Assembly: GCA_937139365.1 (NCBI GenBank)
Contig: CAKZPT010000091.1
Coordinates: forward strand, 1,974 to 65,973
DNA from: an uncultured bacterium
Lineage (GTDB): Bacteria > Verrucomicrobiota > Kiritimatiellia > PWTM01
Direction of reading: 5' to 3'
Length of the DNA: 64,000 bases
Shown piece by piece: positions 14,925-63,786 of this stretch. Below the pieces are notes generated by a model. The model saw only the letters and a list, made by a program, of their open reading frames with translations, searched no databases and had not been told where the DNA came from. Position numbers and translations under genes: made by a program. How positions within the stretch are numbered: the first letter of the stretch is position 1; every line of letters begins with the position of its first letter.

Positions 14925-14952
14925 CCCGTTTTCCGGGCGTGGCGCAAGCGGG

Positions 14953-15026
14953 TGGGCCCGGCAGGACTCGAACCTGCGACCAGAAGATTATGAGTCTCCC
15001 GCTCTGACCGCCTGAGCTACGGGCCC
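14953..15026 (-). tRNA. tRNA with anticodon CAT: tRNA-Met (elongator-type anticodon stem) or tRNA-Ile2 (lysidine)
   Basis: The reverse complement folds as a cloverleaf: acceptor GGGCCCG/CGGGCCC, D-arm GCTC..GAGC, anticodon loop CUCAUAA, T-loop GGTTCGAGTCC, discriminator A. CCA is not encoded. The three G-C pairs typical of an initiator anticodon stem are absent. Confidence 0.75.
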
Positions 15027-15095: not shown

Positions 15096-18000
15096 TCAGG
15101 GACGGCCCGCCTCCGCGACCTCGCGGGCGACGATGGGCGCAACGATGCGGAAGCCGACGTTGAACACGCGCCGCCATTCGGGATACGCCCACCGGGCGGC
15201 TGCGCTCACCCGGCGGGGCGGGTCGAAGAACGAACCGCTGCGCACGACCCTTGGCCCGAGTGCGGCAGGGTCGTTTCGGCCGTCCTCGTCAATCCATGGG
15301 TAGGGGGCGTATCGCGATAGAGTCCACTCCGCCGCGTTGCCGATCATGTCGGCCAAACCGAGGCGGTCGGTCCCGGACACGCCCACGGGGGCGGTCACGA
15401 CATGGCCGTCGTCGTGGCTGGCGGGCGCAGCCCCCTCGCCGTCCACCCAGAGGTGCTCTACCCCGCCGGTGATCAAGGGCTGGCCCGCCAGCGGTGCGAG
15501 GAAGGCGGCGTCGGCAAGGTTCGGAAGAATGCTGACGGGCGGCTCTGCCGCCGCGCGGGCCGCGTACTCCCACTGGGCCTCGGTCGGCAGTTCGAAACGC
15601 TCCCCCGTGATGTCGCTGAGGCGCCGGCAGAATTCCCGGGCGTCGAGCCACGACACCCGGCCGACCCACTAGTCGTCGCCGTCCAGCGAAAGACCATCGC
15701 CCTCCGGTTGCGCATGGCGCCGGAGATACCGACCGCTCGAGTGTCCCGGCATCAGCCGCCGGAACTGGCGGTTCGAGATCTCGGTCCGCGACATCCAAAA
15801 CGGCGCCACGCGCACCCGGCAGGGCGGGGCCGTGTCGTTCGGGCCCGCGTCGGTCCCCATCGTGAACTCGCCCCCGGGGATCTCGACCAGTTCGATCCGC
15901 ACACCGTCCCCGAGGTCGAGGACGCGATCCCTGCCAGGCTGGGGATGCAGCGGTGAAACGGGGGGCGGCGGCTGAATCCCGGTGGCGGCGCTGGGGGAAA
16001 AAGGCGGGGGCCGGTACGGCCGGGTTTCCGGTATGGCCTCGGGATCGTCGGGCGGCCCGCCCGCCATCGCCCACATCTCCATCCGGCGCCGATGCATTGG
16101 GGCCACAAGCGGCGAGATTTCGCCCCACGTGCCGAAAAAGGGGGCGTTGAGATCCGCCCAGGTAACGAGCCGTTCCCACCCCTCCCGGTCCAGAGCCACG
16201 CCGCGGTGGCCAGAGCGAAGCATTTGAACGAGCGGGCTGGTGTCGACGTGGTATTCGCCGGGCCCGAGGAGTCCGACCCCGTCCTCGATGCCCACCCGGC
16301 GGACACGGGCCACGAGGGCATCGTAGGCGGGGGAATGGCGGATGCGGCCGCCCGTCGCCTCGCGCATGGCCGCCGGCATGCGATCGATGGCGAGTTTCGA
16401 TAGCGGATGGCAGCGTACTCCGGCGCTCCGCCGCGGAGGTCGGGCAGCGAGGAGTCGATGCCGTTGTGACAGCGGACACAGTGGTGGTCGAGCACTGGCT
16501 GAACCTCGCGGGAGAACGAGAAGCCGCGCGGCGGTCCCAGCCAGGGCTGTGGGGCCGCCGGCGACCGGCCGAGCGCGTGCCCAGCCCTGGCGGGCGGGGC
16601 ATGGTGGGCCGGCTCGTGGCGGCCGACGCAGGAGACGTGTTCGCCGGGCATGGCCGTGTAGCAGCTCCGCATGATCTGCACGGCCGCGCCGTCGGCATCG
16701 ATGGCCTGGAAGGCGAGCGGCGTGCGCGCCGGCACGCGGAAGAACGCCGAGCCATCGTTCTCGACGGGCACGGTTCCGATGATGCGCATGGCATCCCACG
16801 GACCCCCGCGGCCGATCAGGTCGGGGCCGGCCGTGTCGAGGTAGCCGAAGTGGAAGGCAACCAGCCGTAGCGCACGGACCGTGCCGCGGGGCACGCCGGC
16901 GAGACCGGGCCCCTGGTACACGTCGTGGATGTAGACGATGGCGTCCGTTTGCGACTCGTCGACCCGGTCCGGAATCGCCGGCGGCCTCGGGCGGGGCACG
17001 AGGACGATCGGCTCCAAAAGAGCGTCACCGGGCATCTCGAAGAACGGGACAACGTTGTCGTGGACGTCGGCCACGGCCAGCGCCCAGTTCGAGGTCGGCG
17101 ACGCCTTCACCGAGACCGGCATCGTGGTCTCGTCCACCGGTCACGGAGTAAGGAACCTCGGCCAGGCGCCGCCGACGAGGGGTTGTCGGCGATGCGGCGT
17201 TCCACGGGCTGTCCGCAGCCCGAGATCCGGGGAATTCCACCCCCCTCGGCGGCGCCGAGCCGCGTGTCCTCGACCGCCAGCCATCCCATGCGGTGGGGCC
17301 CGCGGTAGCCGCTGAGAATCGCCGCAATCCGGCCCGGCGCGCCGGGCATCTCGCGCGGGAAATAGAGCGCGTTTGGGAACCACGAATTGCTGCCGTACAG
17401 GGCCCGCTGTCCGGTGCCGTCGGGGTTCATCGCCGTCAACAGCCGCAAGGAATATGTGGTTGATGCCGGCGTATTCCCAGCGGCTGTACACGACCTGTCC
17501 GTTCGAGAGGACGGCGGGGTGGAGGTCGTGGTCTGGTCGAAGCAAAGCTGCCGCAAGCCACTTCCATCGGCGTTCATGCGGTAGAGGACGCAGACGCGCT
17601 TGAGGCCGTGCCAGCAGGGCACGGACTGAAACGTCGCCGTGGCGCCGAACACGATGCGGCCGTCGGGCAGCCAACACGGATCGAAGGCATGCACCTCGTG
17701 CGGCAGACGCGAGACCGTCCGGACGCCGGTTCCGTCCGCACCGATCTCGCACACCTCCCAGCCGTTGGGCGTGGAGCGGGTGAACAACAGGCTATGGCCG
17801 TCCCAATCTGGATCCACCTCGCCGACGTAACCGCCCTCTGGTGGCGCATACAGGGGGGCCCACCGCCATCCGACCGGTGAGCGCTCGAGACGGCCGATCT
17901 CATTGTCGTAGCCGGTCCGTTCGAGGGAACTGTTGCACTCGTGGTTGGACGGCAGGCTGATCTCGCGTCCGTCGTCGCCGCTCCAGGAGATCCGTTGGTC

Positions 18001-29421: not shown

Positions 29422-31848
29422 ATGTCCGAAAGCCGCGCCGACCTGCACGTCCACAGCCGGTATTCCGACCGGCCGAGCGAGTGGTTCCTCCGCCGCATCG
29501 GTGCGCCGGAGAGCTTTGTCGACCCGCGCGAGATCCATCGGCGCTGCCGCGAACGGGGGATGGATTTCGTCACGGTGACGGACCACAACACCCTCGCCGG
29601 CTCGCTGGCGATCGCCGACCTGCCCGGCGTGTTCCTTTCGGCCGAGATGACGACCTACTTTCCGGAGGACCGCTGCAAGATCCACTGCCTGGTCTTCGGC
29701 GTGACGGAGGCGGACTTCGCCGAGCTCGACGCGACGCGGGAGAACATCTACGAGTTCGCGGGCCTCCTGCGGCGCCGGGGGATCGCGCACGCGGTGGCGC
29801 ATCCGCTGTTCCGCATCAACGACCGCCTGACGCCGGACCACGTCGAGAAGCTGCTGCTGCTGTTCAACCACTTCGAGCTGTTGAATGGCTCGCGGGACCG
29901 GCGGGCCGCTCAGATCGCGCGGCGGGTGTTCGACGGGCTGACGCCAGAGTGGATGGCGCGGATGGCGGACCGCCACGGCCTGGAGCCGGTCGGGCCCGAG
30001 CCGTGGCGGAAGCACCTGACGGGCGGCAGCGACGACCACAGCGGCCTCTTCGTGGCCGCCGCCCACACGGCGACCCCCCCGGCGGCCGACGCGGTGGAGT
30101 TCGTGGCCCACCTCCGCTTCGGCCGGACCGAGCCGAGGGGGCGCTCGGGGGACAGTCTGCGCCTCGCCCGTAGCCTCTACCAGATCGCGGGCGACTACTA
30201 CCGCAGCCGTTTTCTCGGCCAGGGCGGGGGGTCGAGCGTGCTGGGCGCGATGCTGGCGCGCCTTGCCGAGGGCTCCGGAGAGTCCGCACCGGCCGCCTCG
30301 AGTGGCGGCCTGTGGCGGCGAGGGGCCGGCCGGATCATCCAGAGGGTCCGTCGCCGGCGGCTGCCCGAGTCCGAGCGGCGGCTGCTCGATGCGATCTCCG
30401 ACCTCGTCGGTCGGGGACCGGCGGGCGACGACACGGACCTGCCGCCCGAGCGGCGCGCGTTTCAGCGGGCCGCTCGCGTGGCCCAGGAGCTGACGCTGGC
30501 GTTCGGCACGCGGCTGTTCGAACAGTTCCGGCGCGGGCGCCTCACCGAGGCCCTGGAGGCCCTGGCCTCGCTCTGCCCCGTCGGCGTGGGCATTCTGCCG
30601 TACCTGACCGCGTTCGTCGCCCAGCACAAAGACGAACGGTTCCTGCAGGAGGTCGCGCTGCGGTTTCCCGGCGCCGCCACGCTGCGCCGGCGCAGCGCGC
30701 GCTCGGTGTGGATCACCGACACCTTCCACGAGATCAACGGCGTGGCGCGCTCGGTGCGCACCCTCGCCGGCATCGCTGCGCGCTGCGGCCGCGACGTCAC
30801 GGTCCTGGTCTGCCAGGACAGGCCGCCCGCCGCCGACTTTCCGCTGCGGAATTTTCCGCCGCTGCGCACGTTCACGCTGCCGGAGTATCCGGCCCAGCCG
30901 CTGGCGTTTCCCCCCTACCTCGAAATCCTCGCGTGGATCGAGGACCAGCGCTTCGATCGCGTGGTGATCTCGACGCCGGGGCCGTTGGGGCTGTGCGGGC
31001 TGGCCGCCGCACGGCTCTTCGGGCTCCGGTGCGTCGGCGTCTACCACACCGATTTTCCCGAGTACGTCCGGCTGTGGACGGACGACGAGCAGATGAAAGA
31101 GCTCACCTGGCGGTACATGCGGTGGTTCTATGGCGACATGGACCGCGTGTTCGTCCCCAGCCGGGCGTATCTCGAACGGCTCTCGGAACAGGGCTTTCGT
31201 CGCGAGCGGCTGGCGGTCATGCCCCGCGGCATCGACCGGGAGCTGTTTCGGCCCGAACGACGCGACCCCGCCTTCTGGAGCCGGTACGGCATCGGCGGTG
31301 GCCTCAAGTTCGTCTACGTGGGCCGTCTGGCGCGCGAGAAGAACCTCGCGCTGCTCGGCGACGCGTTCCTGGAGGTCCGGCGGCGCGTGCCGTCGGCCAA
31401 CCTGGCGTTCGTCGGCGACGGGCCGGACGCCCCCGAGCTGCGCGCGCGGTTCGGTCGGGAGCCGGGCATCGTGTTCACCGGGCCGTTGCATGGCGTCGAA
31501 CTGGCCCGGGCCTACGCCAGCTCCGACGCGCTGGTCTTTCCTAGCTTGACGGACACCTTTGGAAACGTCGTGCTCGAGGCGCACGCCTGCGGGCTGCCCG
31601 CGATCGTGGCCGACCGCGGCGGCCCGCCGGAAATCGTCCGCGCTTACGGGTCGGGGCTGGTGGTGGAGGGCGGAAATGCCGCCGCGTGGGCGGCGGCGAT
31701 GGAACGGCTGGCGGAGGATCGCGAGCTCGCCGCCCGCTTGCGCGAGATGGCCCTCCGGTGCGCGGCCGATAGTCGCTGGGAATCGGCGCTGACGATTTTC
31801 GACGACGAGGCCGCGCCCGAGCCCGCTCTGGAGCTGGCTCCGGCGTGA
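29422..31848 (+). CDS. Fusion protein: N-terminal PHP (polymerase/histidinol-phosphatase) domain joined to a C-terminal GT4 (GT-B, group 1) glycosyltransferase
   Basis: PHP motifs (ADLHVHSRYSDRPSEW ... VTVTDHNT ... HAVAHP ... GGSDDHSG). GT4 motifs (SVWITDTFHEINGVARSV ... FVYVGRLAREKNL ... EAHACGLPAIVADRGGPPEIV). A single uninterrupted 808-aa ORF. Confidence 0.75.
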   Translation: MSESRADLHVHSRYSDRPSEWFLRRIGAPESFVDPREIHRRCRERGMDFVTVTDHNTLAGSLAIADLPGVFLSAEMTTYFPEDRCKIHCLVFGVTEADFAELDATRENIYEFAGLLRRRGIAHAVAHPLFRINDRLTPDHVEKLLLLFNHFELLNGSRDRRAAQIARRVFDGLTPEWMARMADRHGLEPVGPEPWRKHLTGGSDDHSGLFVAAAHTATPPAADAVEFVAHLRFGRTEPRGRSGDSLRLARSLYQIAGDYYRSRFLGQGGGSSVLGAMLARLAEGSGESAPAASSGGLWRRGAGRIIQRVRRRRLPESERRLLDAISDLVGRGPAGDDTDLPPERRAFQRAARVAQELTLAFGTRLFEQFRRGRLTEALEALASLCPVGVGILPYLTAFVAQHKDERFLQEVALRFPGAATLRRRSARSVWITDTFHEINGVARSVRTLAGIAARCGRDVTVLVCQDRPPAADFPLRNFPPLRTFTLPEYPAQPLAFPPYLEILAWIEDQRFDRVVISTPGPLGLCGLAAARLFGLRCVGVYHTDFPEYVRLWTDDEQMKELTWRYMRWFYGDMDRVFVPSRAYLERLSEQGFRRERLAVMPRGIDRELFRPERRDPAFWSRYGIGGGLKFVYVGRLAREKNLALLGDAFLEVRRRVPSANLAFVGDGPDAPELRARFGREPGIVFTGPLHGVELARAYASSDALVFPSLTDTFGNVVLEAHACGLPAIVADRGGPPEIVRAYGSGLVVEGGNAAAWAAAMERLAEDRELAARLREMALRCAADSRWESALTIFDDEAAPEPALELAPA

Positions 31849-31906
31849 TCCGCGGCCGCCGCGCCGGCACCCGACCGAGCGGCCGGACGCAGGGGCCGCC
31901 ACCGCG

Positions 31907-33007
31907 GCGGGAGGCGGGAGCCGCCGAGGCCGGCCAACGTGGGCTGAAGATTGGTCATCGCCGTCATTTCGCCGCAGACGCAGCCGGCAGGAATGCGGCC
32001 GGGCCACCGAGGCAGCGTCGGCAACCGCACGCCGCCGTCCCGCGTGCATCCCTTCGCGCCGCGTAGCGGCCTGTTGGCCGCCCCCACGTTGATCGCGCCG
32101 CCGTTGTCGCTGGTGAGAATCACGAGGGTGCGATCCGCCAGGCCGGCGGCGACCAGTGCTTCCAACACGCGGCCGACGGCCGCATCCATCGCCGCGATCG
32201 TCGCGGAGTACATCGCGTGGTCGTGGGTCAGGCGCACGTCGCGTTCGCCGTCGCGTCCCCACCGAGAGATCAGCTCCAGCCGTGACGCTTTCTGCTCGAA
32301 ATGCCGGCGCCGGTCAGCCCGCGCCTAAAGGGGGCGTGGAAACGGAGTTGTAGGGCAGCTACGCCAAAAACGGTCGATTGCGGTACGCGCAAAATGAACC
32401 GCGCCGTCTCCTCCGCGAGCCGTGCCGTGAGATACTTGGCCGGTGGGCCGTCGGGGAGCCGGGGGATGTCGTAGGGCGAGAAGTACTTTCCGCCGCTGTA
32501 AGGGCCGCCCTGTTTCGTGCGGCCGAGGTTGCGATTCGAAGCCCTGGGTCCTCTAGCTATCATCCCTCGGGGCCCAGGTGCCATCTGCCCCCAAAGGCGT
32601 ATCCCCTCTGCTTCGACAGTTCGGTCCCCATCACCTCCTCGCGCGCGGGCCGCTCGGCATAAGGGGAAAACAGCCCGCGTGTTCCGGGCCCATGCGCCGA
32701 GTTGCGGAGCGCCGGGCTGATCGGAAATCCCCGTACGTTGCGGCCAGCAACCCGGCATCAGGTTGGCGCGGGCCGTCGAGCAGATGGGGCAAGTGGCATC
32801 GGCGACCGTGAACGGGATGCCCACCGCCGCCAGGCGCTCGGTGTTGGGGATCTCGTAGAAGTGGTCACCGAGGCAGACGGCATCCGTCGCCCCCAATCTT
32901 TCACGAGGCAGCCCCGAAAATTTGGTGGCGAGGGGGCGGAGACTGGCGGCAACGCCAGCGTGCCACAGCAACGGCGGCAAGCGCAGTGTGAAGACCTGCG
33001 ACGGCAC
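31907..33007 (-). pseudogene. Sulfatase remnant: N-terminal and middle regions in two reading frames; the C-terminus is missing (cut off by the end of the GT4 gene)
   Basis: Frame 32270-33007 carries the sulfatase N-terminal signature region with a degenerate active-site motif (ADATCPICSTARANLMPGCWPQRTG: C-S-T-A-R where C-S-P-S-R is expected). Frame 31907-32237 carries the middle region (HAMYSATIAAMDAAVGRVLEALVAAGLADRTLVILTSDNGG). No room is left for the C-terminal domain. Confidence 0.5.
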
Positions 33008-33061
33008 AGAGATCGTCGGGCGCGCAGCGGGTCGGCGCTTCGTTCGCGTGGCGGCGAAACC

Positions 33062-42314: not shown

Positions 42315-43499
42315 CTATTCGACGGACGAGAGGCGCCGCCGGAACGAGTCGGCCATGCCGCTGAGGAGGCTGTACATGGCCGGCACCAGTCCCAGCGTCA
42401 GCAGCGTGGCCGAGGTCAGACCGAACATGACGGCGACCGCCATCGGGGCCCACCAGGCGCTGGATTCGGACCCGGTGACCAGCCGCCACGGCCACGTGTG
42501 GATGTCCAGACTCCACCCGACCGCCATCGGAAACAGCCCGAGCACCGTGGTCGCCGCGGTGAGCAGGACGGGGCGCAGCCTACGGACACCGGCGACGACG
42601 ATCGCCTGGTGGCGGTCCATGCCCTGTGCCCGGAGCTGTCGGATGCAGTCGATCAGCACGATCGCGTTGTTGACGACGAAGCCGGCCAGCGTGATGACGC
42701 CCAGACCCGTCATGATGATGCCGAACTTCATCCGGCGGAGGATCAGGCGCCACATCACGCCGACCAGCGACAGCAGGACCGAGGAGAAGACAATGCCCGG
42801 GATTAAAACGGAGTTGAACTGGAGGACCAGGATCACGAGGATCGCCGCGCTGGCGACCATGAACGCGTGGAGCAGAAACCGGGCCGACTGCTGCATCTGG
42901 CGGTTCTCGCCGGTGAAGGCGACCGCGCACCCCGGCGGCACCGGCACGGCGGCCACCCGCGCCTTGACGTCGCGCAGGATCCGGTCCACGCCCCGGCCGG
43001 CGTCGTTGCCGCTGATCTTGATGACGCGCTTCTGGTCCTTGCGCTGGATGGCGACGCGGCCGGCCGCGTAGCGGAACGTCCCCAGCGACGTGATCGGGAC
43101 GGCGGCGCCAGACGGCGTCGGGATGCGCAACCGTTCCGTCCAGTCGAGCGTGGCGCGCTGGTCCGCGGGCAGGCGGACGGTAATGTCGTACTCCTCGGTC
43201 TCGCCCCGGAAGCGCCCCGCCTCGACGCCGTAGAGCGCCATGCGCAGGAACGTCCCGATCGACCGCGTGTCGCCGCCCAGCATCGCGGCCCGCTCGCGGT
43301 CGACGTGGAACTGGAGTTCGGGCAGCGCGTCCTCGAAGTCGTCGCGGAGGTCCACCAGCCCGGGGACGTCGGCGACGGCGCGGGCGATCTCGACGCCACG
43401 TTCGGCCTGTTCCACCGTGCGAGACGACGCCGCGACGGCCGCCGCCTCCCGCAGCCGAAGAATTGCCTCCTCCACCTCGAGCTGGATCGTCCGCTCCAT
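42315..43499 (-). pseudogene. C-terminal half (about 390 aa) of an RND (AcrB/HAE1-type) efflux transporter. The N-terminal roughly 650 aa are absent.
   Basis: Covers the second periplasmic loop plus TM8-12 (..RFLLHAFMVASAAILVILVLQFNSVLIPGIVFSSVLLSLVGV...). The ORF begins inside the periplasmic loop, with no TM7. The upstream space is occupied by the ABC exporter gene on the other strand. Confidence 0.6.
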
Positions 43500-43547
43500 C
43501 TCGTCGAGGTCCGCCCGAGCCGATTCGAGGATAAAGCCGAAACAATG

Positions 43548-50148: not shown

Positions 50149-50224
<76 letters not shown>

Positions 50225-51227: not shown

Positions 51228-52459
51228 ATGAGCCCTGCCGCCTCCATGTCTCCGCGGGAACGGTTGCGCGTCACGCTGGCGGGGGGGATGCCCGACCGCG
51301 TCCCCGTCTCGCCGTTCGTCCAAGAGGAATACCTGGCGTTCTGTTATCCGGACCGCCCCACGGCGGACCGGGTGGTGGATGCGACCCGGCTGGCGGAGGC
51401 GCTGGATTTCGACCTGATGGCGCATCCGCGCACCCTCGAGCCTCCGCATTTTTCCGCCGGAGCCGGCCGGGGTGGGAGGTGCGTCCGGAGCGGGCCGAGG
51501 AGGACGGCATGCAGGTGCAACGGCTCCGGATCCGCACGCCGTCGCATGAGCTGGTGCGTAAGGACCGCCGTCCCCTGGCCGGCGCGGCGACGGCGGGGGT
51601 GAGCTGGACGCCGGTGCGGCCGCTGCTGGCCGACGCGAACGACCTCGCCGTCTTACTGGAACGGATGCCGCCGCCGGACGACGCGGGTCGCCGCGAGATG
51701 AAGGAGACGATCGCCGGCTGGCGCGCCGTTCTCGGCGAACGCGGCATCGTGGCGCCATGGGGATTCGCCGGCGTGTTCAACGCGGCGGCGGAACCGGTCG
51801 GCATGGACCGGCTCTACGCGATGCCCTTCGAGGAACCGGACGAGTATGCGGCGCTGATGGAGGGGCTCGCCGCGGCCGAGGCCGACTACAACGCCGTGCT
51901 GGCCGCCGCCGGCGCCGCCGCCGTCGGCATCCAGGGCCACATCGCCGGCGGCCAGTCGGTCGGCCCCGATTTCTTCCGGGAACGTGTCCTGCCATGGGAA
52001 CGCCGCGTGGTCGGGGCCATTCACGCGGCCGGGGCCTTCACCGTGTACCACAACTGCGGCCACGCGCGTTCCCTGTACGAGGTCTATCGCCAGCTGGGGA
52101 TGACCGCGTAGGAGACGGTCGCCGAGCCGCCGCGGGGCGACAACACCCTCGAGGAGGCGAAAGCCATGCTTGGCGACCGGATCGTGCTGATCGGCAACCT
52201 CGAGCAGGTCGGGTTTCTGAAGCGAGCCACCCCCCGCGAGGTCGCCGAGCGGACGCGACGGATGGTTCGAGTAGGCAAACCCGGCGGCCGCTACATCGCC
52301 GCCGCCGCAGACTTCATCGAGCGCGGAACCCCGCTGGGCAACCTGCGCGCGATGATCGAGGCGGCGAAGGACGAGGGAGACCACGGATCACGATGGTGCG
52401 CCTGCCGCGAATCGAACGCGGAACCTTCAGCTCCGGAGGCTGACGCTCTGTCCAATTGA
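51228..52459 (+). pseudogene. Uroporphyrinogen-decarboxylase (URO-D) family protein (MtaA/CmuA-like). It carries one frameshift and one in-frame TAG, and its 3' end runs over tRNA-Arg on the opposite strand.
   Basis: The N-terminal part is in the frame of 51111-51602 (RERLRVTLAGGMPDRVPVSPFVQEEYLAFCYP). It shifts to frame +2 at the T5 run near 51455-51470. That frame continues (..VYHNCGHARSLYEVYRQLGMTA) to a TAG at 52109-52111. It then resumes in-frame (ETVAEPP...LGDRIVLIGNLEQ ... GRYIAAAADFIERGTPLGNLRAMIEAAKDEG). Confidence 0.55.
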
Positions 52460-52470
52460 GCTACAGGCGC
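52394..52470 (-). tRNA. tRNA-Arg (CCG)
   Basis: The reverse complement is GCGCCTGTAGCTCAATTGGACAGAGCGTCAGCCTCCGGAGCTGAAGGTTCCGCGTTCGATTCGCGGCAGGCGCACCA. Anticodon loop CUCCGGA. The full cloverleaf forms. CCA is encoded. Confidence 0.8.
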
Positions 52471-55333: not shown

Positions 55334-56597
55334 ATGACGAACAAACGGATCGAGGCGGCGTATCGATTAGCGAGGGAACGGTACGGGGACATCGGGGTGG
55401 ACACCGAGGCGACCCTTGGCCGGCTGGCGAGGATTCCGATCTCGATGCACTGCTGGCGGGGCGACGACGTCGGCGGCTTCGAGAACTTCGACGGCGGCCT
55501 CGGCGGCGGGCTGGCCGCGACCGGCAATTATCCGGGCAAGGCGCGGACGCCGGACGAGTTGCGGGCCGACGCAGAGAAGGCGTTCTCCCTGATCCCCGGC
55601 CGGCACCGGTTCAACCTGCATGCCTTCTATGCCGAGTTCCGCGGCCGCAAGGCGGACCGCGACGCGATCGAGTTCCGCCACTTTCGCGGATGGTGGACTG
55701 GGCGAAGTCGCTTGGGATCGGGCTCGACTTCAATCTGACGTGCTTCTCCCATCCAAAGGCCGCCAGTGGGTTCACGTTGTCGCACCCCGACCGGGATATC
55801 CGCCGATTCTGGATCGGCCACTGCGTGGCCTGCCGGCGGGTCGGTGCGGCGATGGGTCGGGCGCTGAACAACCCGATGGTCACCAATATCTGGATCCCCG
55901 ACGGGATGAAGGACACGCCGGCGGACCGCTCCGGCTTTCGCGACCGGCTGCAGGAGTCTCACGACGAGATCCTGGACGCGAAGGTGGACACTCGTCACAA
56001 CCTCGACGCCGTCGAGGGCAAGCTGTTCGGGCTCGGCTGCGAGAGCATGACGGTCGGCTCGCACGAGTTTTACCTCGGCTACGCCGTGCGGCGGCAGATC
56101 CTCTACACGCTGGATTCTGGCCACTGTCATCCGACCGAACAGGCGCGGACAAGATCTCGTCGGTGTTGCGGTACATGCCCGGCCTGCTGCTGCACGTCAG
56201 CCGCGGCGTGAGGTGGGACAGCGACCACGTCGTGGCGCTCAACGACGAGCTGCGGTCGATCGCGGAGGAGCAGGTGCGCGGCGACGCGCTGGATCGCACG
56301 CACATCGGCCTGGACTACTTCGACGCCAGCATCAATCGGATCGCCGCGTGGGTGATCGGCACGCGCAACGTGATCAAGGCGCTCCTGCTGGCGCTGTTGG
56401 AGCCCCGCGCGACGCTGCGGCGGATGGAGCTGGCCGGCGACTACACCGGGCGCCTGGCGCTGCTGGAGGAACTCAAGACGCTGCCGACCGGCGCGGTCCG
56501 GGACGAGTACTGCCGGCGCCAGGGGGTGCCGGTGGGCGCGGCGTGGTTGGACGAGGTGCGGGCCTATGAAAAGGCCGTGCTCGCGCGCCGGGCTTGA
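55334..56597 (+). pseudogene. rhaA: L-rhamnose isomerase, split over three reading frames by two single-base deletions
   Basis: The three segments are collinear with E. coli RhaA. Segment 1: MTNKRIEAAYRLARERYG..PISMHCWRGDDVGGFEN..GNYPGKAR. Segment 2: [21 protein letters not shown]...IWIPDGMKD...DSGHCHPTE. Segment 3: [29 protein letters not shown]...[16 protein letters not shown]. Restoring one G in each of two GG runs (near 55690 tggtgg to tgggtgg; near 56147 gcgcgga to gcgcggga) gives a single ORF. Confidence 0.7.
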
Positions 56598-56627
56598 GGC
56601 GCGGCGGCCGGCCGGGAGGACGCGGAG

Positions 56628-57719
56628 ATGGAATCGGCGACGAATCCGGCACTAAGCGTGGCGATCTTCACCCTCGGCGGGCTGGCAGGCGCGGTCTTTT
56701 ACTTGCCGTTCAAGAGGGCCCGCCAGTGGGCGTGAGAGAGCTACTGGCTGGTCTACGCGATCGCGGGGCTGGTGGTCGTGCCGTGGATCCTCCCGATGAC
56801 GACCTCGCCGAACACGCTCTCGGTGCTGCGGCAGGGACCGGCGGGGGTGATCAGGCGGTGTTTCATGTACGGCGCGATGTGGGGCGTCGGCGGTTTGACG
56901 TGGGGTCTGATGATCCGCTATCTCGGCATCGGCCCGGCGATCGGCTGCGGGCTGTGCTCCGCCGCCGGCACGCTTGTGCCTCCGATCCTGGAGGGCAACC
57001 TCGGCAGGCTCTACGGCACGCCGGCGGCCAACGCGTCGCTGCTGGGGGTGGCCGTCTCGCTGGCCGGCATCGTGCTGGTGGGCACGGCGGGCATGTCGAA
57101 GGAGGCCGAGCTGCCGGAGGAGCAGAAGAAAAAAGCGGTGGCCGAGTACAACTTCCGCAAGGGAATCCTCGTGGCGATCTTCTCCGGCCTGATGAGTTCC
57201 GAGATGAGCGTCGGCCTGCAGGGCGGCAAGGCGATCGAGGAGTTGACCCGCACCGTCGAGCCGGCCACCCCATTGACCTGGAGCGGCATGCCCGTGCTGG
57301 TGGTGGTGCTCCTCGGCGGCTTTGTCGTGAACGCCCTCTGGTGCCTCCATTTGGACGTGAACAACAGGACGCTGGGCGACTACGCGAAGCCCGGCGCCCC
57401 GATCGCCGCCAACCTATTCCGGGCGGCGTTGGCCGGCGCGATCTGGTGCGCGCAATTCATCTGCTTTAAAACGGGCGAGTCGGCGATGGGCTCCATGGCC
57501 TGCATCGGCTGGGCGGTGCTGATGGCCAGCGCGATCGGCTTCAGCACCCTGCTGGGCATCGTACTGGGCGAATGGAAGGGCACCGGCCAGCGGACCCGGT
57601 CCCGCCTCGCGGTGGGGTTGATCCTGCTGCTGGGCTCGACCATCCTGGCCGGCTACAGCGGGCGCCTCGTGCAACGGAGCGCGCCGCCGGCTACCGAAAC
57701 GCCCGCCGTGGAGCCCTGA
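56628..57719 (+). pseudogene. rhaT: L-rhamnose-proton symporter, with an in-frame TGA at 56733-56735 replacing a conserved Trp codon. Alternatively an N-terminally truncated CDS starting at GTG 56772.
   Basis: ATG 56628 ... FYLPFKRARQWA*ESYWLVYAIAGLVVVPW, compared with E. coli RhaT [30 protein letters not shown]: the stop aligns to W. Downstream, MYGAMWGVGGLTWGLMIRYLG matches the RhaT signature [21 protein letters not shown]. Confidence 0.6.
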
Positions 57720-57817
57720 CCGGCTTCGGGCCTGTCCAAACCTTGGAAGCTTTGGCCGGCCTTGGGTCCAAACCTTGGATGGCCGGCGCGGACAGAACGA
57801 CGAAAGGAGAGCGGACC

Positions 57818-59314
57818 ATGGCGGATCGAGTGTACCTGGGCGTCGACCTCGGGGCCGAAAGTGGGCGGGTCATTGCGGGCGTTTGGAACGGCCGGAAACT
57901 CCGTCTGGAGGAGGTCCACCGGTTTCCGAACGGGCCGGTCCACCTGGCCGACTCCATACGATGGGACGTCCTGCGCCTGTGGGCGGAGGTCCAGAACGGG
58001 CTGTCCGCCGCCGCCCGGCGGTATGGCCGCCAGATCGTCTCCGTCGGCGCCGACACCTGGGGGGTGGACTACGTTCTGCTCACCCGCCGCGGGGAGATGC
58101 TCGGCCTGCCCTACCACTATCGGGACTCGCGTACGGACGGCGTCATGGCCTCGGCCTTCCGCAAAGTGCCCCGCGCGGAGATCTTCCGGCAGACGGGCCT
58201 CCAGTTCATGCAGCTCAACACGCTGTTCCAGCTCATCGCGCACCGCCGGGAGCACCCGGACATGCTCGACCATGCCGACCGCCTGCTGATGATGCCGGAC
58301 TTCTTCCATTGGGCGATGTGCGGATCGAAGGTCGTCGAGTTCACCGACGGCTCCACGACCCAGTGCATGAGCGCCGGCCGGCGGACGTGGGCGACCGGCC
58401 TGCTGCGCGCCTTAGACATCCCCACGCGCATTTTCCCGAAGGTGGTCCAGCCCGGCACCGACCTCGGCGAGCTGCGCCGTTCGGTCGCCGAGCGCACCGG
58501 CTTAGATGGCGTCCGCGTCGTCGCGCCGCCCACCCATGACACCGCCTCCGCCGTCGCGGCCGTCCCGACCGACCGCACCGGCTCGGCCGAGTGGGCGTAC
58601 CTCAGCTCCGGTACCTGGTCCCTGATGGGCGTCGAGGTGCGGCGCCCCGTGATCACCGCCCGGGCCCTCGAGCTGAACGTCACCAACGAGGGCGGCGTCG
58701 ATGGCACCTACCGGCTGCTGAAGAACATCATGGGCTTGTGGCTCGTGCAGCAGTGCAAACGGGCCTTCGAGGCCGCCGGCCGGACCTACACCTACGCCGA
58801 TCTCGTCCACGAAGCCGCTGCGGCGCCGGCCCTCCGATCGTTGGTGGACCCCGACGATACCCGTTTCCTCAACCCGCCCGACATGCCCCGCGCCATCCAA
58901 TCCTACTGCCGCGAAACGGGACAGCCCATCCCCTCGACCGACGGGGCACTGGTCCGCTGCGCGTACGACAGCCTTGCGCTCAAGTACCGGCAGGTGGTCG
59001 GGTCGCTGGAGGAACTGACCGGCGGGCGCATCGAGGTGATCCACATCGTCGGCGGCGGCTCGCAGAACGACCTGCTGAACCAGTTCACCGCCGACGCCTG
59101 TCAGCGGCCTGTGCTGGCCGGTCCCGTCGAGGCTACGGCGATGGGCAACGTCCTCGTCCAGGCGCGCGCCAGCGGCGAGGTCGGGTCGCTGGCGGAGATC
59201 CGCGAGGTCGTCCGCCGGTCGTCGGCGCTTCGATCGTTCGAGCCCGGCGACCCCGGCCCGTGGGACGAGGCCGCCAACCGCATGGAGCGCCTGCGTCGCC
59301 GCAAGGAGTCCTGA
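57818..59314 (+). CDS. rhaB: Rhamnulokinase (FGGY carbohydrate-kinase family)
   Basis: FGGY N-terminal motif [13 protein letters not shown]. RhaB-like core (HYRDSRTDG ... MPDFFHW ... [16 protein letters not shown]). The SD AGGAGA precedes ATG 57818. The ORF is intact. Confidence 0.8.
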
Positions 59315-59488
59315 AGCCCGGGCGAACTTCAAGGATCCCTGGCAGTTCCCCGGCGAGGCGCCCTGATTATTCGCCCTGTCGCAAGGTGGGGCGCTGCGCC
59401 GCGACGGCTACACCGTGCCCTCGGGACTCGACCTTGCACGAGCCGCGCGATCGCGATCGGCCCCGGCAAGCCAGGGGCCTGTGGCCGG

Positions 59489-59514
59489 GGACACAGTTAA
59501 TAAAGTCCGGCCCC
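59489..59514. repeat. 26-nt AT-rich intergenic element GGACACAGTTAATAAAGTCCGGCCCC, copy 2 of 2
   Basis: Identical to 7467-7492. It lies between rhaB and the DUF5060/GH-like gene. Confidence 0.6.
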
Positions 59515-59698
59515 GGGCTCGCTGAGGCTCTGCCATTCGCCCTCGCACAGTTGGTGGCCGCGGCGCCGGGGTTGCGCCGCAGTCCACCGCGAGAGGCCTC
59601 GCGCCGCGGCCTCGCTAGCCCACATCCATTCATCCCGTGCCGCTTGATTGCGCCTCCGCTTCGTTCGTAGGATTTCGCGCGCCGAGGATAACCAGGAG

Positions 59699-61475
59699 GT
59701 GCAAACGCAACCGTACGGCATCACGGCGGGCATGGTGTGGGCCGCTCTTGCATTCAGCGGGACGGTGTGGGCGGCGGACGGCGTCGAGGCGGGGCTTGTC
59801 CATGTCCGCGGGGAGTGCCGCCAATAGCATCCGTCGACCCTCGACGTGCAAGGGCCGGAGGCCGACGAGACGGGCACATCGCCCAATCCGTTTCTCGATT
59901 ATCGATTGACGTGGCGGCTGACCGCGCCCAGCGGAGGCCGCGAGGTCGCCGTGCCGGGATATTTTGCGGCGGACGGCCGCGCGGCGGAAAGCGGTGCGAC
60001 CCGCGGGAACCGGTGGCGCGCGCATTTTGTCCCCGACCAGTCGGGGCGGTGGACGTGGCGGCTGGAGTTCGTCCAGGGGCCGGGCATCGCCGTCTCCGAT
60101 GACCCCGGGGAGCCTGTGGCGGGGCCGCATGGGGCGGGCGGCGCGTTTAAGGTGGCGCCGGCGGCCCTTTCCGACGATCCTATCCGCCGCCGCGGCCGCC
60201 TGACGCCGGCTGGCGGCCGGTACCGGCGTTTCCTCGGCGACGGCTCGTGGTTCTTGAAAGCGGGCGCCGCCTCCCCCGAGACCCTACTGGCGTACCGCGA
60301 CTTCGACGGCACCGAGGCGCGCAAATCCTCGGCCGCTCCGCTGAAAACATAGGCGCCGCACCCTGGCGACTGGCAGCCCGGCGATCCCGTCTGGCGCGGC
60401 GAGCGCGGCCGTGGCCTGATCGGGGCCTTCAACTACCTGGCCGCCGTTGGCGTCAACGGCGTCTCCTTCCTCACCAACAATGCGGGCGGCGACGGCGACA
60501 ACGTCTGGCCGTTCGCCGCCCGCGACGACAAGCTGCACTACGACTGCGGACGGCGGCCGCCTGGGCGTGGAGCGGAAGCTCTACCTCCGCGAGATCGTCG
60601 CCCGCTTCGAGCATTTCCTGGCCGTCACGTGGAACCTTGGAGAGGAGTGCTCGTTGAGCACCGACGAGATCGCCGCGATGGCCCGCCACCTCCGGCAGCT
60701 CGATCCCTACGGCCACCTCGTTGTCGGCCACACCTTCCCCGACCAGCAGGACGCTGTCTACCGCCCCCTGCTCGGCCGCGCGGACGTCGTTACGGGGGTC
60801 TCGCTCCAGAACGGCTGGTCCGCCGCCCACCGCCAGACCTGGACTTGGATCGTCGAGTCCGAGCGCAGCGGCCATCTGTGGGTGGTGGCCAACGACGAGC
60901 AGAACCCCGCCGATCTGGGCGTGCCCCCCGACGAGGGCTGGAAGGGGTTCGACGGGCTTGCCCGCGGCGAACGCGGCCGACCCTACACCCGCCACGACAT
61001 CCGCAAGCGCTGCCTCTGGGGCACCCTCATGGCTGGTGGGGAGGGCGTCGAGTACTTCTTCGGGTACCGCCTGCCGGAAAACGACCTGAATTGCGAGGAT
61101 TTCCGCAGCCGCGAAGGCGCCTGGCGCGACGCCGCCTTGGCGCGCGCCTTCTTCCGCGACCACAAGGTGCCGTTCTGGGAGATGCGGAACGCGGACGAAC
61201 GGGTCGGCAACCATCGCCGCGGCGACGGCGCCTATTGCCTTTCGAAGCCCGGCCTCGCCCACGTGGTCTACCTGCCAACGGGGGGTACGGTGCGCCTCGA
61301 CCTGTCGGACGACCCGACGGAGTACGACGCCGGATGGTACGACCCCCGCGCCGGCGGCCCGCTCCGGCCCGTCGCGCCGGCGCGAGTGCGCGGGGGAGGG
61401 GTTGTTGAGATTGGGCCTCCGCCGGCCGATCCACCGGAGGACTGGGCGTTTCTATTGCGCAGGACCGGAGGGTGA
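59699..61475 (+). pseudogene. Secreted glycoside-hydrolase-like protein (DUF5060 N-terminal domain plus a DUF4038/GH-like catalytic domain), interrupted by two in-frame TAG codons and one frameshift
   Basis: Signal peptide (M)QTQPYGITAGMVWAALAFSG. TAG at 59825-59827 sits in ..VRGECRQ*HPSTLDVQGPEADETGTSPNPFLDYRL; the stop aligns to the conserved W of DUF5060 homologues (..KQWHxVTLTFxGP..NPFxDYRL). A second TAG is at 60350-60352 (..APLKT*APHPGDWQPGDPVW..). A frameshift near 60545 leads into frame 60447-61475 (..YLREIVARFEHFLAVTWNLGEE ... HLWVVANDEQN ...). Confidence 0.55.
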
Positions 61476-61501: not shown

Positions 61502-62419
61502 TCACACTTCCGGCGGACGTTCCCGGAACGCGAGGACAGGGTCGAGGCTCTCGGCGCCGCAGAGCAGCATCGCGAGGCGGTCCACGCCGAGCGCGATCCC
61601 CGCGCAGCGGGGCAGGCGGCCGAGGCAGGCGAGAAACGCATCGTCCAAGGGATGAACCTCGTCGCCCGCGGCCTGCCGTTGCGCCGCCCACTCCGCGTAC
61701 CGCTGCTCGTGCTCGGTGCGATCGGTCAACTCGTCGTAGGCGTTGGCCACCTCCACCCCATCGAGGTAGAGCTCGAATCGCTCCGCCCGCGGCGGGGGAC
61801 CGGGTGCGGTGCGGGCGAACGCGGCCCGCTGCGGCGGATATCCGGTCAACGCCACCGGCCGATCGCGCGGAAGTGCCGGCTCGACCTTCCCGACGAGGTC
61901 GAGGTCGAACCGGTCCTCGTCCCACGCCGCGAGCGGATCCCACCCCGCCCAGCGGCGGAACGCCTCCGCGACCTCGAGCTTCGCCCACGGCGCGGTGAGG
62001 TCCGTTTCGCCCTCCCCGCGCCGGATCACGTTCCGGCCGGTCGCCCGCACCGCGACGAACGGCAGCAGTTCGCGCAAGTCCCGTTCGATCTCGTCGAGGC
62101 CGGCGCCAGCGCGGTACCACTCAAGCATCGTGAACTCGGGGTGGTGCAGCGGGCCCGTCTCGCCGGCGCGGAAACAGGGCCCGATCTGGACCAGCCGCGG
62201 CCAGCCCTCGGCCAGCAGCCGCTTCATGTGCAGTTCCGGCGAGGTGCGCAGCCAGCCGCCGCCGGCGGGCACGGCGCGGATGTGTGGCTCTAACACCGGG
62301 GTCGTCACGCGTACCGGTGTCTCCACCTCGAGGAAGTCGCGGTCGTGGAAAAACTCCCGGATTGCGGCCAGCATGCGCGCGCGAATCGCCAGCGGGTGGT
62401 CCGCGGACGGCGGCGGCAC
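61502..62419 (-). CDS. epmA: EF-P lysine-34 beta-lysyltransferase (PoxA/GenX, class II aaRS-like)
   Basis: LysRS-like catalytic motifs (FLEVETP ... WLRTSPELHMKRLL ... GPCFRAGETGPLHHPEFTMLEWY ... GIALGVDRLAML). Confidence 0.75.
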   Translation of the reverse strand: MPPPSADHPLAIRARMLAAIREFFHDRDFLEVETPVRVTTPVLEPHIRAVPAGGGWLRTSPELHMKRLLAEGWPRLVQIGPCFRAGETGPLHHPEFTMLEWYRAGAGLDEIERDLRELLPFVAVRATGRNVIRRGEGETDLTAPWAKLEVAEAFRRWAGWDPLAAWDEDRFDLDLVGKVEPALPRDRPVALTGYPPQRAAFARTAPGPPPRAERFELYLDGVEVANAYDELTDRTEHEQRYAEWAAQRQAAGDEVHPLDDAFLACLGRLPRCAGIALGVDRLAMLLCGAESLDPVLAFRERPPEV

Positions 62420-62431
62420 GTCGCCCCCTCC

Positions 62432-63049: not shown

Positions 63050-63619
63050 CTACCGACGGGCCACGCGTTCGACGTACTCGCCCGTGCGAGTGTCGATGCG
63101 CACCCAGTCGCCCTGGTTGATGAACAAGGGCACGCGCAGCTCGTAGCCGCTGTCGATCTTAGCGGGCTTCGTCACGTTCGTCGCCGTGTCGCCCCGGACG
63201 CCCGGCTCGGTCTCCACGATCTCCTTCTCCACGAAAGGCTTGACGAATTCGACCGCGATGACCTGCCCGTTGTGGCGCAGCAGGCTGACCTCGCAGTCCT
63301 CCGTCAGAAAATACCGCGCGTCGCCGAGGGTTTCGGGGGAGAGGGAGAACTCCTCGAAAGTGCGCGGGTCGGTGAAGACGTAGTGGTGCCCGTCCTCGTA
63401 CGAGAAGTGGACGATCCGTTCCTCGAGGTCCGGCTTGTTGATCTTGTCCACCTCCCGGAAGGTGCGGTCCTGGGTGGTGCGCGTGATCAGGTTCTTGATT
63501 CGGCACTTGTACATGGCCTGGCCCTTGCCGGGCTTGACGAAGTTGAACTCGACGACCTCGTACGGCACGCCGTCGAGCTCGATCTTCAGGCCCTTTCGAA
63601 GGTCGGAAGCGGTGTACAT
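63050..63619 (-). CDS. efp: Elongation factor P
   Basis: MYTASDLRKGLKIELDGVPYEVVEFNFVKPGKGQAMYKCRIKNL... The modifiable Lys in the PGKGQA loop is present. Start at ATG 63617-63619. Confidence 0.85.
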   Translation of the reverse strand: MYTASDLRKGLKIELDGVPYEVVEFNFVKPGKGQAMYKCRIKNLITRTTQDRTFREVDKINKPDLEERIVHFSYEDGHHYVFTDPRTFEEFSLSPETLGDARYFLTEDCEVSLLRHNGQVIAVEFVKPFVEKEIVETEPGVRGDTATNVTKPAKIDSGYELRVPLFINQGDWVRIDTRTGEYVERVARR

Positions 63620-63786
63620 GTCGCGGTCTCCGGGTCGGTGGCCAACGGCCCGCAAACCCACAGTATGTGCGAAGGCCCGCCGGCCCGCAAGCCGCCTCCC
63701 CTCCGCGGTCCGCTCGCCCTCCCGCATTCCGCCGAGCCGAAGGGCGGTTGACGCACTCCTCCTGTTCATTTATTTTTGAACTCGAT

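What the first reader, a model, noticed from the sequence alone, without database searches (positions are those of the whole stretch)
55334..61475. Rhamnose/glycan locus: rhaA broken by two single-G deletions in G-runs; rhaT and the DUF5060-GH gene carry stop codons exactly at conserved Trp codons; rhaB is intact
Alignment to E. coli RhaA shows the three out-of-phase segments rejoin perfectly if one G is restored in each of two GG runs (GGG to GG, near 55690 and 56147). rhaT has TGA at 56733-56735 where E. coli RhaT has W (..KKWSWETMW.. against ..RQWA*ESYW..). The DUF5060 gene has TAG at 59825-59827 at the conserved W of the KQWH motif. It has a second TAG at 60350-60352 and a frameshift near 60545. 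TGG-to-TGA/TAG changes are G-to-A transitions, the dominant spontaneous change in high-GC genomes. Single-base losses in homopolymers are classic replication slippage. They are equally the classic consensus error of long-read or older pyrosequencing assemblies. Either way the locus is a useful diagnostic. If the lesions are real, the organism has recently lost rhamnose and rhamnogalacturonan-type catabolism, even though rhaB (1.5 kb) stays intact.
Basis: seen in the sequence. Interest (0 to 1): 0.65.

Follow-up and report, generated by a model that had tools for sequence, protein, structure and literature searches.

The report
Decaying rhamnose genes, real not artefact
An uncultured bacterium related to Kiritimatiellia carries a rhamnose-utilisation gene cluster and a neighbouring glycan-cleaving enzyme gene that are truly broken, because the same lesions appear in independent metagenome assemblies; this is ordinary gene decay, not a sequencing error or a new mechanism.

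Summary
rhaA (55334-56597) is split over three frames by two one-base deletions. rhaT has TGA at 56733-35 where the closest orthologous locus has TGG in the same local DNA context. rhaB (57818-59314) is intact. The DUF5060 gene (59732-61475) has TAG at an invariant Trp, and a second TAG at a Trp/Tyr position.

The "frameshift near 60545" is really a deletion of about 125-143 nt that removes a helix and a strand of the catalytic barrel.

Every lesion is identical in all the other public contigs that cover it (two to four per site). These come from an NCBI MAG, an ENA assembly and two JGI metagenomes, and each has its own SNPs. So the lesions are real and were shared by every strain sampled here.

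Between-strain SNPs are 18 nonsynonymous to 4 synonymous in the three broken genes, which fits neutral drift. The counts are 5:6 in rhaB and 0:3 in dnaG. A later 6-nt deletion in rhaT is still polymorphic.

A related locus (L169: SRAP-rhaA-rhaT-rhaB) has all three genes intact.

Stops at Trp are what a transition-biased mutation spectrum predicts (44-68%). The "G lost from a GGG run" detail is not demonstrable. At least four other gene remnants lie in the window. This is ordinary stepwise gene decay, and interest is low.

The parts
55334..56597 (+). rhaA (L-rhamnose isomerase) pseudogene. It lies in three frames: 55334-55693, 55693/4-56142 and 56145-56594. One base is missing after 55693 and one within 56143-56147.
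   Evidence: Pfam and NCBIfam profile coverage is contiguous across the three pieces. The junctions were read. Identical junction 26-mers occur in L001, L002, L087 and L088. All 7 between-strain SNPs are nonsynonymous. Three columns conserved in at least 98% of orthologues carry radical changes: Q42R, L210H and W390R.
56628..57719 (+). rhaT (L-rhamnose/H+ symporter family) pseudogene. TGA at 56733-56735 is codon 36, formerly TGG. A later in-frame 6-nt deletion near 56928-56936 changes GVGLGLAIG to GIGPAIG.
   Evidence: Pfam RhaT positions 35-332 of 344 match after the stop. The L169 DNA has TGG at this codon. The TGA is identical in L001, L002, L086 and L088, while the 6-nt deletion is absent from L086. 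The SNP count is 8 nonsynonymous to 4 synonymous. The branch is accelerated: 35 window-specific against 16 L169-specific changes, p=0.008.
57818..59314 (+). rhaB (rhamnulokinase), an intact 498-aa ORF
   Evidence: FGGY_N and FGGY_C match at full length. TIGR02627 equivalog scores 542 bits against a cut-off of 528. The exact protein is found on three other assemblies. The SNP count is 5 nonsynonymous to 6 synonymous, pN/pS about 0.29. Only conservative changes occur at conserved columns. The branch is not accelerated.
59732..61475 (+). DUF5060 / TIM-barrel glycoside-hydrolase-like / Collagen_bind_2 pseudogene. TAG at 59825-27 replaces an invariant Trp. TAG at 60350-52 falls on a Trp/Tyr column. 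A deletion of about 125-143 nt has its junction at 60547-60549.
   Evidence: Alignment to 8 intact homologues of 615-646 aa. The lesions are identical in L001 and L085, and the first TAG also in L002 and L003. An AlphaFold model of the homologue P0004 (pLDDT 90) shows that the deletion removes helix 260-275, strand 279-283 and the invariant residues E286, E288 and D291. The nearest folds are GH5 and GH140.
51255..52380 (+). Context: URO-D/MtaA-like family pseudogene. It has a -1 frameshift in a T-run near 51445 and TAG at 52109-11, where the closest homologues have Trp.
   Evidence: Pfam URO-D positions 143-261 and 272-345 lie on either side of the stop. The alignment is A3. The lesions are identical in L001 and L002.
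15099..16379 (-). Context: FGE-sulfatase-domain gene interrupted by an in-frame TAG at 15669-71
   Evidence: Pfam FGE-sulfatase positions 4-54 lie before the stop and 95-254 after it. The JGI contig L084 shows the same split.
31647..33061 (-). Context: heavily degraded sulfatase remnant spread over at least two frames
   Evidence: Only Pfam Sulfatase positions 200-299 of 301 match. Sulfatase-like pieces appear in another frame upstream.
42318..43547 (-). Context: truncated RND (AcrB-family) remnant; only the C-terminal third is present
   Evidence: Only Pfam ACR_tran positions 656-1020 of 1021 match. The space for the N-terminal two-thirds is occupied by an ABC transporter gene on the other strand.

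Best explanation
This is a three-gene L-rhamnose utilisation cassette: rhaA (isomerase), rhaT (proton symporter) and rhaB (rhamnulokinase). It lies in an uncultured PVC-group bacterium that is closest to Kiritimatiellia MAGs. The cassette has been inactivated by ordinary spontaneous mutations, and so has an unrelated neighbouring glycoside-hydrolase gene.

What is shown: rhaA carries two one-base deletions. rhaT carries a TGG-to-TGA nonsense mutation at codon 36. The hydrolase gene carries two nonsense mutations and a deletion of about 130 nt that removes part of the catalytic barrel. All of these lesions are shared by every strain sampled here.

What followed: the broken genes then drifted neutrally. 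They show an excess of nonsynonymous SNPs, radical changes at conserved residues, and a still-polymorphic 6-nt deletion in rhaT.

rhaB has no lesion. It shows weak signs of continued purifying selection, but it may also simply not have been hit yet.

Inferred: with neither isomerase nor transporter, the cell cannot run the canonical rhamnose-to-rhamnulose-1-phosphate route from this locus. The loss is part of a wider erosion of accessory genes, mostly glycan-related, in this lineage.
For: Gene identity and lesions.

The lesions are real. The exact RhaB protein and near-identical DNA (98.7-99.9%) occur on contigs from NCBI GCA_036845605.1, ENA ERZ27245459, JGI 3300025104 and JGI 3300010288. Each contig has its own SNPs. 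Every lesion-spanning 26-29-mer is identical in all contigs that cover it.

Ancestral state. Locus L169 shares the upstream SRAP gene and has intact rhaA (420 aa), rhaT (371 aa) and rhaB (80% identical). It has TGG at the rhaT stop codon. L004 and L171 are also intact.

Neutral drift. The broken genes carry 18 nonsynonymous to 4 synonymous SNPs, against a neutral expectation of 74% nonsynonymous (p=0.62). rhaB has 5:6 (p=0.04 against neutrality; p=0.049 against the pseudogenes). dnaG has 0:3.

Relative-rate tests. rhaT is accelerated (35 against 16, p=0.008). rhaA is not significant (32 against 26). rhaB is not accelerated (24 against 44).

Conserved columns. RhaA and RhaT carry radical replacements and a 2-aa deletion. 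RhaB carries only conservative ones.

No codon reassignment. TGA and TAG terminate the intact genes of the window.

Wider decay. A URO-D-like gene, an FGE-sulfatase gene, a sulfatase and an AcrB-family gene are remnants, while the housekeeping genes dnaG, dapB, thrB, thrC, efp and epmA are intact.

Taxon. The best named DnaG relatives are Kiritimatiellia MAGs at up to 56% identity.
Against: No raw reads were examined, so allele frequencies within each sample are unknown. It is also not documented that the assemblies come from fully independent samples; independence is inferred from the different sources and the different SNPs.

The polymorphism counts are small. Ten of the eleven rhaB SNPs come from one contig (L085) and cluster within 630 bp, so they may be a single recombination tract.

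Only 64 kb of the genome is visible. A second intact rhamnose pathway, or rhaD and rhaM, could exist elsewhere.

The absence of a lesion in rhaB is compatible with chance (P about 0.11).
Confidence: 0.9

Rival explanations
1. The lesions are assembly or consensus errors: homopolymer indels from long-read or pyrosequencing data, and miscalled bases. On this view the genes are intact in the organism.
For: The two rhaA indels lie next to short G-rich stretches.
Against: The same lesions appear in every contig that covers them (two to four per site). The sources are NCBI, ENA (a contig named k141_469) and two JGI metagenomes. The contigs differ from the window and from each other at other positions. 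Between assemblies there is no homopolymer indel noise inside genes; the only indels seen are two 6-nt indels in pseudogenes and one 2-nt intergenic indel. The runs concerned are only 2-3 bases long. The SNP pattern in these genes is neutral, which sequencing errors would not produce.
Confidence: 0.02
2. The interruptions are functional: programmed frameshifting, stop-codon read-through or a reassigned codon (TGA or TAG read as Trp), or reversible phase variation at G-runs. On this view the proteins are still made.
For: Four of the five in-frame stops seen in the window fall at positions where homologues have Trp, or in one case Trp or Tyr.
Against: TGA and TAG are the normal terminators of the intact genes here, including rhaB, thrC, dnaG and efp. 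Two different stop codons would both have to be reassigned to Trp. The DUF5060 gene also lacks about 45 codons of its barrel. The broken genes evolve neutrally and carry radical changes at invariant residues. Runs of 2-3 G are far too short for contingency loci, and every strain is in the same 'off' state. Stops at Trp are expected at 44-68% under a transition-biased spectrum.
Confidence: 0.02
3. rhaB is intact only by chance. It is already free of selection and simply has not yet been hit. This is a sub-hypothesis about rhaB and is compatible with the main explanation.
For: Lesion density in the neighbouring genes is about 1.5 per kb, which gives P(no hit in 1.5 kb) of about 0.11. The SNP density in rhaB is as high as in rhaA and rhaT. 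A kinase without its isomerase and transporter has no obvious substrate supply.
Against: pN/pS is about 0.29 (p about 0.04), and rhaB differs from the pseudogenes (Fisher p=0.049). Only conservative changes occur at conserved columns. The branch is not accelerated, and may even be slower.
Confidence: 0.4

Closest known systems
E. coli-type phosphorylated L-rhamnose pathway: RhaT permease, RhaA isomerase, RhaB kinase, then RhaD aldolase (Rodionova et al. 2013, PMC3870299)
   Same: The same three protein families are present. RhaB passes the rhamnulokinase equivalog threshold. The RhaA pieces together cover the whole L-rhamnose isomerase equivalog profile.
   Different: The gene order is rhaA-rhaT-rhaB in one compact cassette, without rhaD, rhaM or an AraC-type regulator nearby. 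This arrangement recurs in 33-41 of 80 loci from genomes of other species, mostly Verrucomicrobiota and Planctomycetota. The RhaT fragment scores below the enterobacterial equivalog cut-offs. Here two of the three genes are dead.
Stepwise natural decay of rha genes in the Shiga-toxin E. coli lineage CC119 (PMC10132054)
   Same: A lesion shared by all strains is followed by strain-specific secondary lesions. In CC119 the shared lesion is a 1-bp deletion in rhaR. The secondary lesions are a 6-bp indel in rhaT, in-frame indels in rhaB and a 1-bp deletion in rhaA. Here the pattern is the same: shared frameshifts and nonsense mutations, then a polymorphic 6-nt deletion in rhaT.
   Different: In CC119 the first hit was in the regulator and the phenotype was tested. 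Here the structural genes are hit, the organism is uncultured, and no phenotype is available.
GH140 apiosidase BT_1012 (PDB 5msy), GH5-type TIM-barrel hydrolases (ManDH5, 9gpe) and the putative glycoside hydrolase BVU_0362 (4n0r)
   Same: The predicted fold of an intact homologue of the DUF5060 gene matches these structures: a central (beta/alpha)8 barrel flanked by beta-strand-rich N- and C-terminal regions. Foldseek E-values are 1e-17 to 1e-23. There are weak Pfam hits to Apiosidase and Collagen_bind_2.
   Different: Sequence identity is only 13-16%. Sequence searches of the PDB find no match, and no NCBIfam family matches. Substrate specificity is unknown. The copy in the window lacks a helix and a strand of the barrel.

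Membership tests
L-rhamnose isomerase RhaA (PF06134 / NF002203) | Full-length similarity to the family profile | tested here: met
   The three pieces cover Pfam positions 3-417 of 417. They cover NF002203 positions 2-118, 120-268 and 270-418 of 419, with bit scores summing to about 627 against a cut-off of 572 (a rough sum).
L-rhamnose isomerase RhaA (PF06134 / NF002203) | A single uninterrupted reading frame encoding the enzyme | tested here: not met
   There are two -1 frameshifts. Intact orthologues are 420-421 aa. The window copy is therefore a pseudogene of the family.
L-rhamnose/H+ symporter RhaT (PF06379) | Full-length similarity and an uninterrupted frame | tested here: not met
   Profile positions 35-332 of 344 match after the stop, and the N-terminal 35 codons align to orthologues. 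However, codon 36 is TGA, and a 2-aa deletion lies in an invariant motif. The fragment scores below the NCBIfam equivalog cut-offs (289 against 468).
Rhamnulokinase RhaB (TIGR02627, FGGY family) | A score above the curated equivalog cut-off, with both FGGY domains at full length | tested here: met
   542.2 bits against a cut-off of 527.95. FGGY_N covers 1-243 of 245 and FGGY_C covers 1-197 of 198.
Rhamnulokinase RhaB (TIGR02627, FGGY family) | Kinase activity on L-rhamnulose | not testable with these tools
   This needs an enzyme assay. The only support here is the genomic association with rhaA and rhaT in many loci.
DUF5060-containing glycoside-hydrolase-like proteins (PF16586 + PF12904) | An N-terminal DUF5060 domain, a central TIM barrel and a C-terminal Collagen_bind_2 domain | tested here: inconclusive
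   DUF5060 (52 bits) and Collagen_bind_2 (22.8 bits) are present. The barrel lacks 41-47 residues, including invariant acidic residues, and the frame is broken three times. It is a pseudogene of the family.
GH140 apiosidase (PF13204) | A match to the catalytic-domain profile above the gathering score | tested here: not met
   20.7 bits against a cut-off of 26.5 for the window fragment. The intact homologue P0001 has no PF13204 hit. The similarity is at fold level only.

The most novel reading that the evidence does not exclude
This uncultured lineage, related to Kiritimatiellia, may be in an early stage of genome-wide loss of its glycan-degrading repertoire. About 7 of roughly 50 gene-like units in this window are remnants, mostly sugar- and sulfatase-related. 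That could reflect a recent change of niche. Within that decay, rhaB would be kept by selection for a role other than rhamnose catabolism.
Probability: 0.2. Interest if true: 0.4.

Novelty: new member of a known kind. Interest (0 to 1): 0.22.

Why it matters
The practical value is methodological. Frameshifts and in-frame stops in a MAG-derived sequence are usually suspected to be errors. Here, agreement across independent public assemblies, together with the nonsynonymous-to-synonymous pattern of between-strain SNPs, shows that they are real pseudogenes shared by every strain sampled.

Biologically, the locus documents stepwise loss of a sugar-utilisation cassette in an environmental population. 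It also hints that this deep-branching PVC lineage is shedding glycan-related genes. No new mechanism is involved.

Tried and rejected
Apart from the exact-match contigs, they returned nothing closer than 77-78% identity, and they did not return this lineage's own JGI contigs. Closer material came from exact-protein look-ups and cluster members and from the large protein search.

2. Exact look-ups of two other window proteins found nothing.

3. A full-text search for the sample and assembly accessions found no paper, so the habitat is unknown. A search for 'DUF5060' found nothing useful.

4. PDB sequence searches for the DUF5060 family, with a single sequence and with a profile, found nothing. 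Only the fold search was informative.

5. I looked for a remnant of the AP_endonuc_2 gene that follows rhaB in L169. There is none in the window.

6. No flanking synteny with L004 or with the other loci from the genome scan was found. Only L169 shares the upstream SRAP gene.

7. The promoter and terminator scan of the locus gave nothing above the shuffled expectation. Rfam found no RNA element inside the locus.

8. I considered and dropped a deaminase-type mutational signature for the Trp stops, because the ordinary transition bias already explains them.

9. An apparent rearrangement in L001 within marC is a scaffold gap filled with Ns, not biology.

Full report
**The observation**

The window is about 70% G+C. 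Between 55334 and 61475 on the + strand there are four genes.

- rhaA is read in three successive frames. The three pieces match the RhaA Pfam profile at positions 3-127, 115-267 and 269-417 of 417. They match the NCBIfam L-rhamnose isomerase equivalog at 2-118, 120-268 and 270-418 of 419. Exactly one profile position is lost at each junction, which is what two single-base deletions would do. The junctions lie after 55693 and within 56143-56147.
- rhaT starts at 56628 and has TGA at 56733-35, which is codon 36. The remaining 327 codons match RhaT positions 35-332 of 344.
- rhaB (57818-59314) is an uninterrupted 498-codon ORF. Both FGGY domains are full length, and the score is above the rhamnulokinase equivalog cut-off.
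- The DUF5060 gene (59732-61475) has TAG at 59825-27 and at 60350-52, and changes frame at 60547-60549.

**Comparison with intact relatives**

About 33-41 of 80 loci retrieved from genomes of other species, mostly Verrucomicrobiota and Planctomycetota, carry the same compact rhaA-rhaT-rhaB arrangement.

The closest relative found is a Logan contig, L169. Its RhaB is 80% identical. It shares the upstream SRAP gene with the window and has intact rhaA (420 aa) and rhaT (371 aa). At the rhaT stop, L169 reads TGG GCG TGG GAG AGC TAC TGG where the window reads TGG GCG TGA GAG AGC TAC TGG. That is a clean G-to-A change in a Trp codon.

In an alignment with eight intact DUF5060-family homologues of 615-646 aa, the first TAG falls on an invariant Trp. 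The second falls on a column that is Trp or Tyr. The supposed frameshift turns out to be a gap of 41-47 residues. Given the frame change, this corresponds to a deletion of about 125-143 nt.

An AlphaFold model of the homologue P0004 has a mean pLDDT of 90. It shows that the deleted stretch is a helix (260-275), a barrel strand (279-283) and the invariant residues E286, E288 and D291. The gene would be dead even without the stops.

**Real lesions or errors?**

The exact RhaB protein is encoded on contigs from an NCBI third-party MAG (GCA_036845605.1), an ENA assembly (ERZ27245459, contig k141_469) and JGI metagenome 3300025104. Cluster members led to further contigs from JGI 3300010288 and 3300025104.

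These contigs are 98.7-99.9% identical to the window, and each has its own SNPs. The 26-29-mers spanning each lesion are identical in every contig that covers them:

| Lesion | Contigs with the identical sequence |
|---|---|
| both rhaA junctions | L001, L002, L087, L088 |
| rhaT TGA | L001, L002, L086, L088 |
| first TAG | L001, L002, L003, L085 |
| second TAG and the deletion | L001, L085 |

The different gene call in L002 (a 177-aa fragment) is caused by a SNP at 55736 that removes an out-of-frame stop. It is not a different lesion. The lesions are therefore real and are shared by all the strains sampled here.

**Evolution after inactivation**

Between-strain SNPs break down as follows:

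| Gene | Nonsynonymous | Synonymous |
|---|---|---|
| rhaA | 7 | 0 |
| rhaT | 8 | 4 |
| DUF5060 gene | 3 | 0 |
| rhaB | 5 | 6 |
| dnaG | 0 | 3 |

Pooled, the broken genes give 18:4. This fits the neutral expectation of 74% nonsynonymous (p=0.62). rhaB deviates from neutrality (p=0.04) and from the pseudogenes (Fisher p=0.049).

A 6-nt in-frame deletion in an invariant RhaT motif (GVGLGLAIG to GIGPAIG) is present in the window and in three contigs but absent from L086. It is therefore a later hit that is still polymorphic.

At columns conserved in at least 98% of orthologues, RhaA has three radical replacements. RhaT has seven deviations, including L103P and the 2-aa deletion. RhaB has four, all conservative.

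Relative-rate tests, with L169 as the comparison lineage and L171 or L004 as outgroup, show acceleration for RhaT (35 against 16 changes, p=0.008). They show none for RhaA (32 against 26), and if anything a slower RhaB (24 against 44). Overall identities to L169 are similar for the three proteins (81.6, 81.0 and 79.8%). So the inactivation is recent compared with the roughly 20% protein divergence from L169. rhaT is probably the oldest casualty.

Stops at Trp are not remarkable. From the codon content of these genes, Trp codons account for 21% of possible one-step nonsense mutations under a uniform spectrum. The share is 44% under a typical transition bias and 68% if only G:C-to-A:T transitions are counted. 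By my own count from the SNP list, about 32 of 44 between-strain SNPs are transitions. A further in-frame TAG in the window, in a URO-D/MtaA-like gene at 52109-11, also sits where the closest homologues have Trp.

The 'G lost from a GGG run' claim cannot be shown. At the first junction the affected codon is Ile in 44 of 50 orthologues, Met in 5 and Leu in 1, and L169 has ATC. The lost base may be A (ATG) as well as G (GTG). L169 reads GTG GCG there, which suggests loss of a G from a GG pair plus a substitution. By contrast, the frameshift in the URO-D-like gene does sit in a run of five T, where homologues imply six.

Codon reassignment, programmed frameshifting and phase variation are all rejected, for these reasons:
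- TGA and TAG terminate the intact genes of the window.
- The broken genes evolve neutrally.
- The hydrolase gene lacks part of its fold.
- All strains are in the same state.

**The DUF5060 gene**

It is not part of the conserved rhamnose cassette. No other locus carrying the rha cassette has it next to the cassette. Its intact homologues have no sequence relative in the PDB and no NCBIfam family.

The predicted fold is a central (beta/alpha)8 barrel flanked by beta-strand-rich N- and C-terminal regions. Its nearest solved structures are a GH5 mannanase (9gpe), the putative hydrolase BVU_0362 (4n0r) and the GH140 apiosidase BT_1012 (5msy), all at 13-16% identity. It is best described as a clan GH-A-like hydrolase of unknown specificity. 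The link to rhamnogalacturonan is not supported.

**Context**

DnaG of this organism is at most 58% identical to any other protein cluster. Its best named relatives are Kiritimatiellia MAGs, so this is a deep, uncultured PVC lineage.

The same 64 kb holds at least four more gene remnants:
- a URO-D/MtaA-like gene with a frameshift and a stop;
- an FGE-sulfatase-domain gene with an in-frame TAG, also present in JGI contig L084;
- a fragmented sulfatase;
- the C-terminal third of an RND (AcrB-family) pump.

Housekeeping genes (dnaG, dapB, thrB, thrC, efp, epmA, the epmB-like radical SAM gene, prmA) and several sensor kinases are intact. Roughly 7 of about 50 gene-like units are therefore dead. 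The rhamnose loss looks like one instance of a broader erosion of accessory, mainly glycan-related, functions.

**Verdict**

The finding is a correct and careful observation of ordinary pseudogenes. The closest described parallel is the stepwise decay of rha genes in E. coli CC119. There, a frameshift shared by all strains is followed by clade-specific 6-bp, 3-bp, 12-bp and 1-bp indels in rhaT, rhaB and rhaA (PMC10132054). The canonical pathway is described in PMC3870299.

What remains open is whether rhaB is retained by selection or by chance (P of no hit about 0.11), and how far the decay extends across the genome. Neither question can be settled from this window.

Noticed in passing
window 51255-52380 (+): A URO-D/MtaA-like family gene is a pseudogene. 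It has a -1 frameshift in a T-run near 51445 (homologues imply PHFF) and TAG at 52109-11 where the closest homologues have Trp. A 6-nt indel at 51874-79 is polymorphic between the window and L002.
   Followed up: yes
window 15099-17140 (-): An FGE-sulfatase-domain gene is interrupted by an in-frame TAG at 15669-71, also seen in JGI contig L084. Just upstream, in another frame, there is a hydrazine-synthase-alpha-like (HZS_alpha) middle domain. Whether this is a separate gene or a frameshifted N-terminus was not resolved.
   Followed up: partly
window 31647-33061 (-) and 42318-43547 (-): A fragmented sulfatase remnant, and a truncated AcrB-family (RND) remnant in which only profile positions 656-1020 of 1021 remain. 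This suggests a high density of pseudogenes in the lineage.
   Followed up: partly
window 7807-8012 (+): A cobalamin riboswitch (Rfam RF00174, 68 bits) lies directly upstream of a DUF4465-domain gene.
   Followed up: no
window 14951-15026 (-), 50149-50224 (+), 52394-52470 (-): Three tRNA genes: Met-CAT, Ala-GGC and Arg-CCG. The tRNA-Ala carries a SNP (50168 G/A) between the window and L002.
   Followed up: no
window 47243-48541 (-), 61505-62431 (-), 63053-63769 (-): A gene with radical-SAM and lysine-2,3-aminomutase (LAM_C) domains, an epmA/poxA-like tRNA-synt_2 gene and efp all lie within about 16 kb. This hints at an EF-P beta-lysylation system in this PVC lineage.
   Followed up: no
L001 14981-15113 (corresponds to window about 62799, inside marC): The NCBI MAG contig has a run of N and about 120 nt of foreign sequence inside marC, which splits the gene call. 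It looks like a scaffolding artefact of that assembly. The window and L085 have marC intact.
   Followed up: yes
window 56400-58510 compared with L085, L086 and L087: In JGI 3300010288 the assembly breaks into three contigs exactly over rhaA-3'/rhaT/rhaB-5', and SNP density is highest there (up to 1.3%). This could be strain heterogeneity or a recombination tract centred on the decaying genes.
   Followed up: partly
L169 4924-5799: In the closest orthologous locus, rhaB is followed, with overlapping stop and start, by an AP_endonuc_2 (xylose-isomerase-like TIM barrel) gene. This gene is absent from the window, with no detectable remnant.
   Followed up: yes
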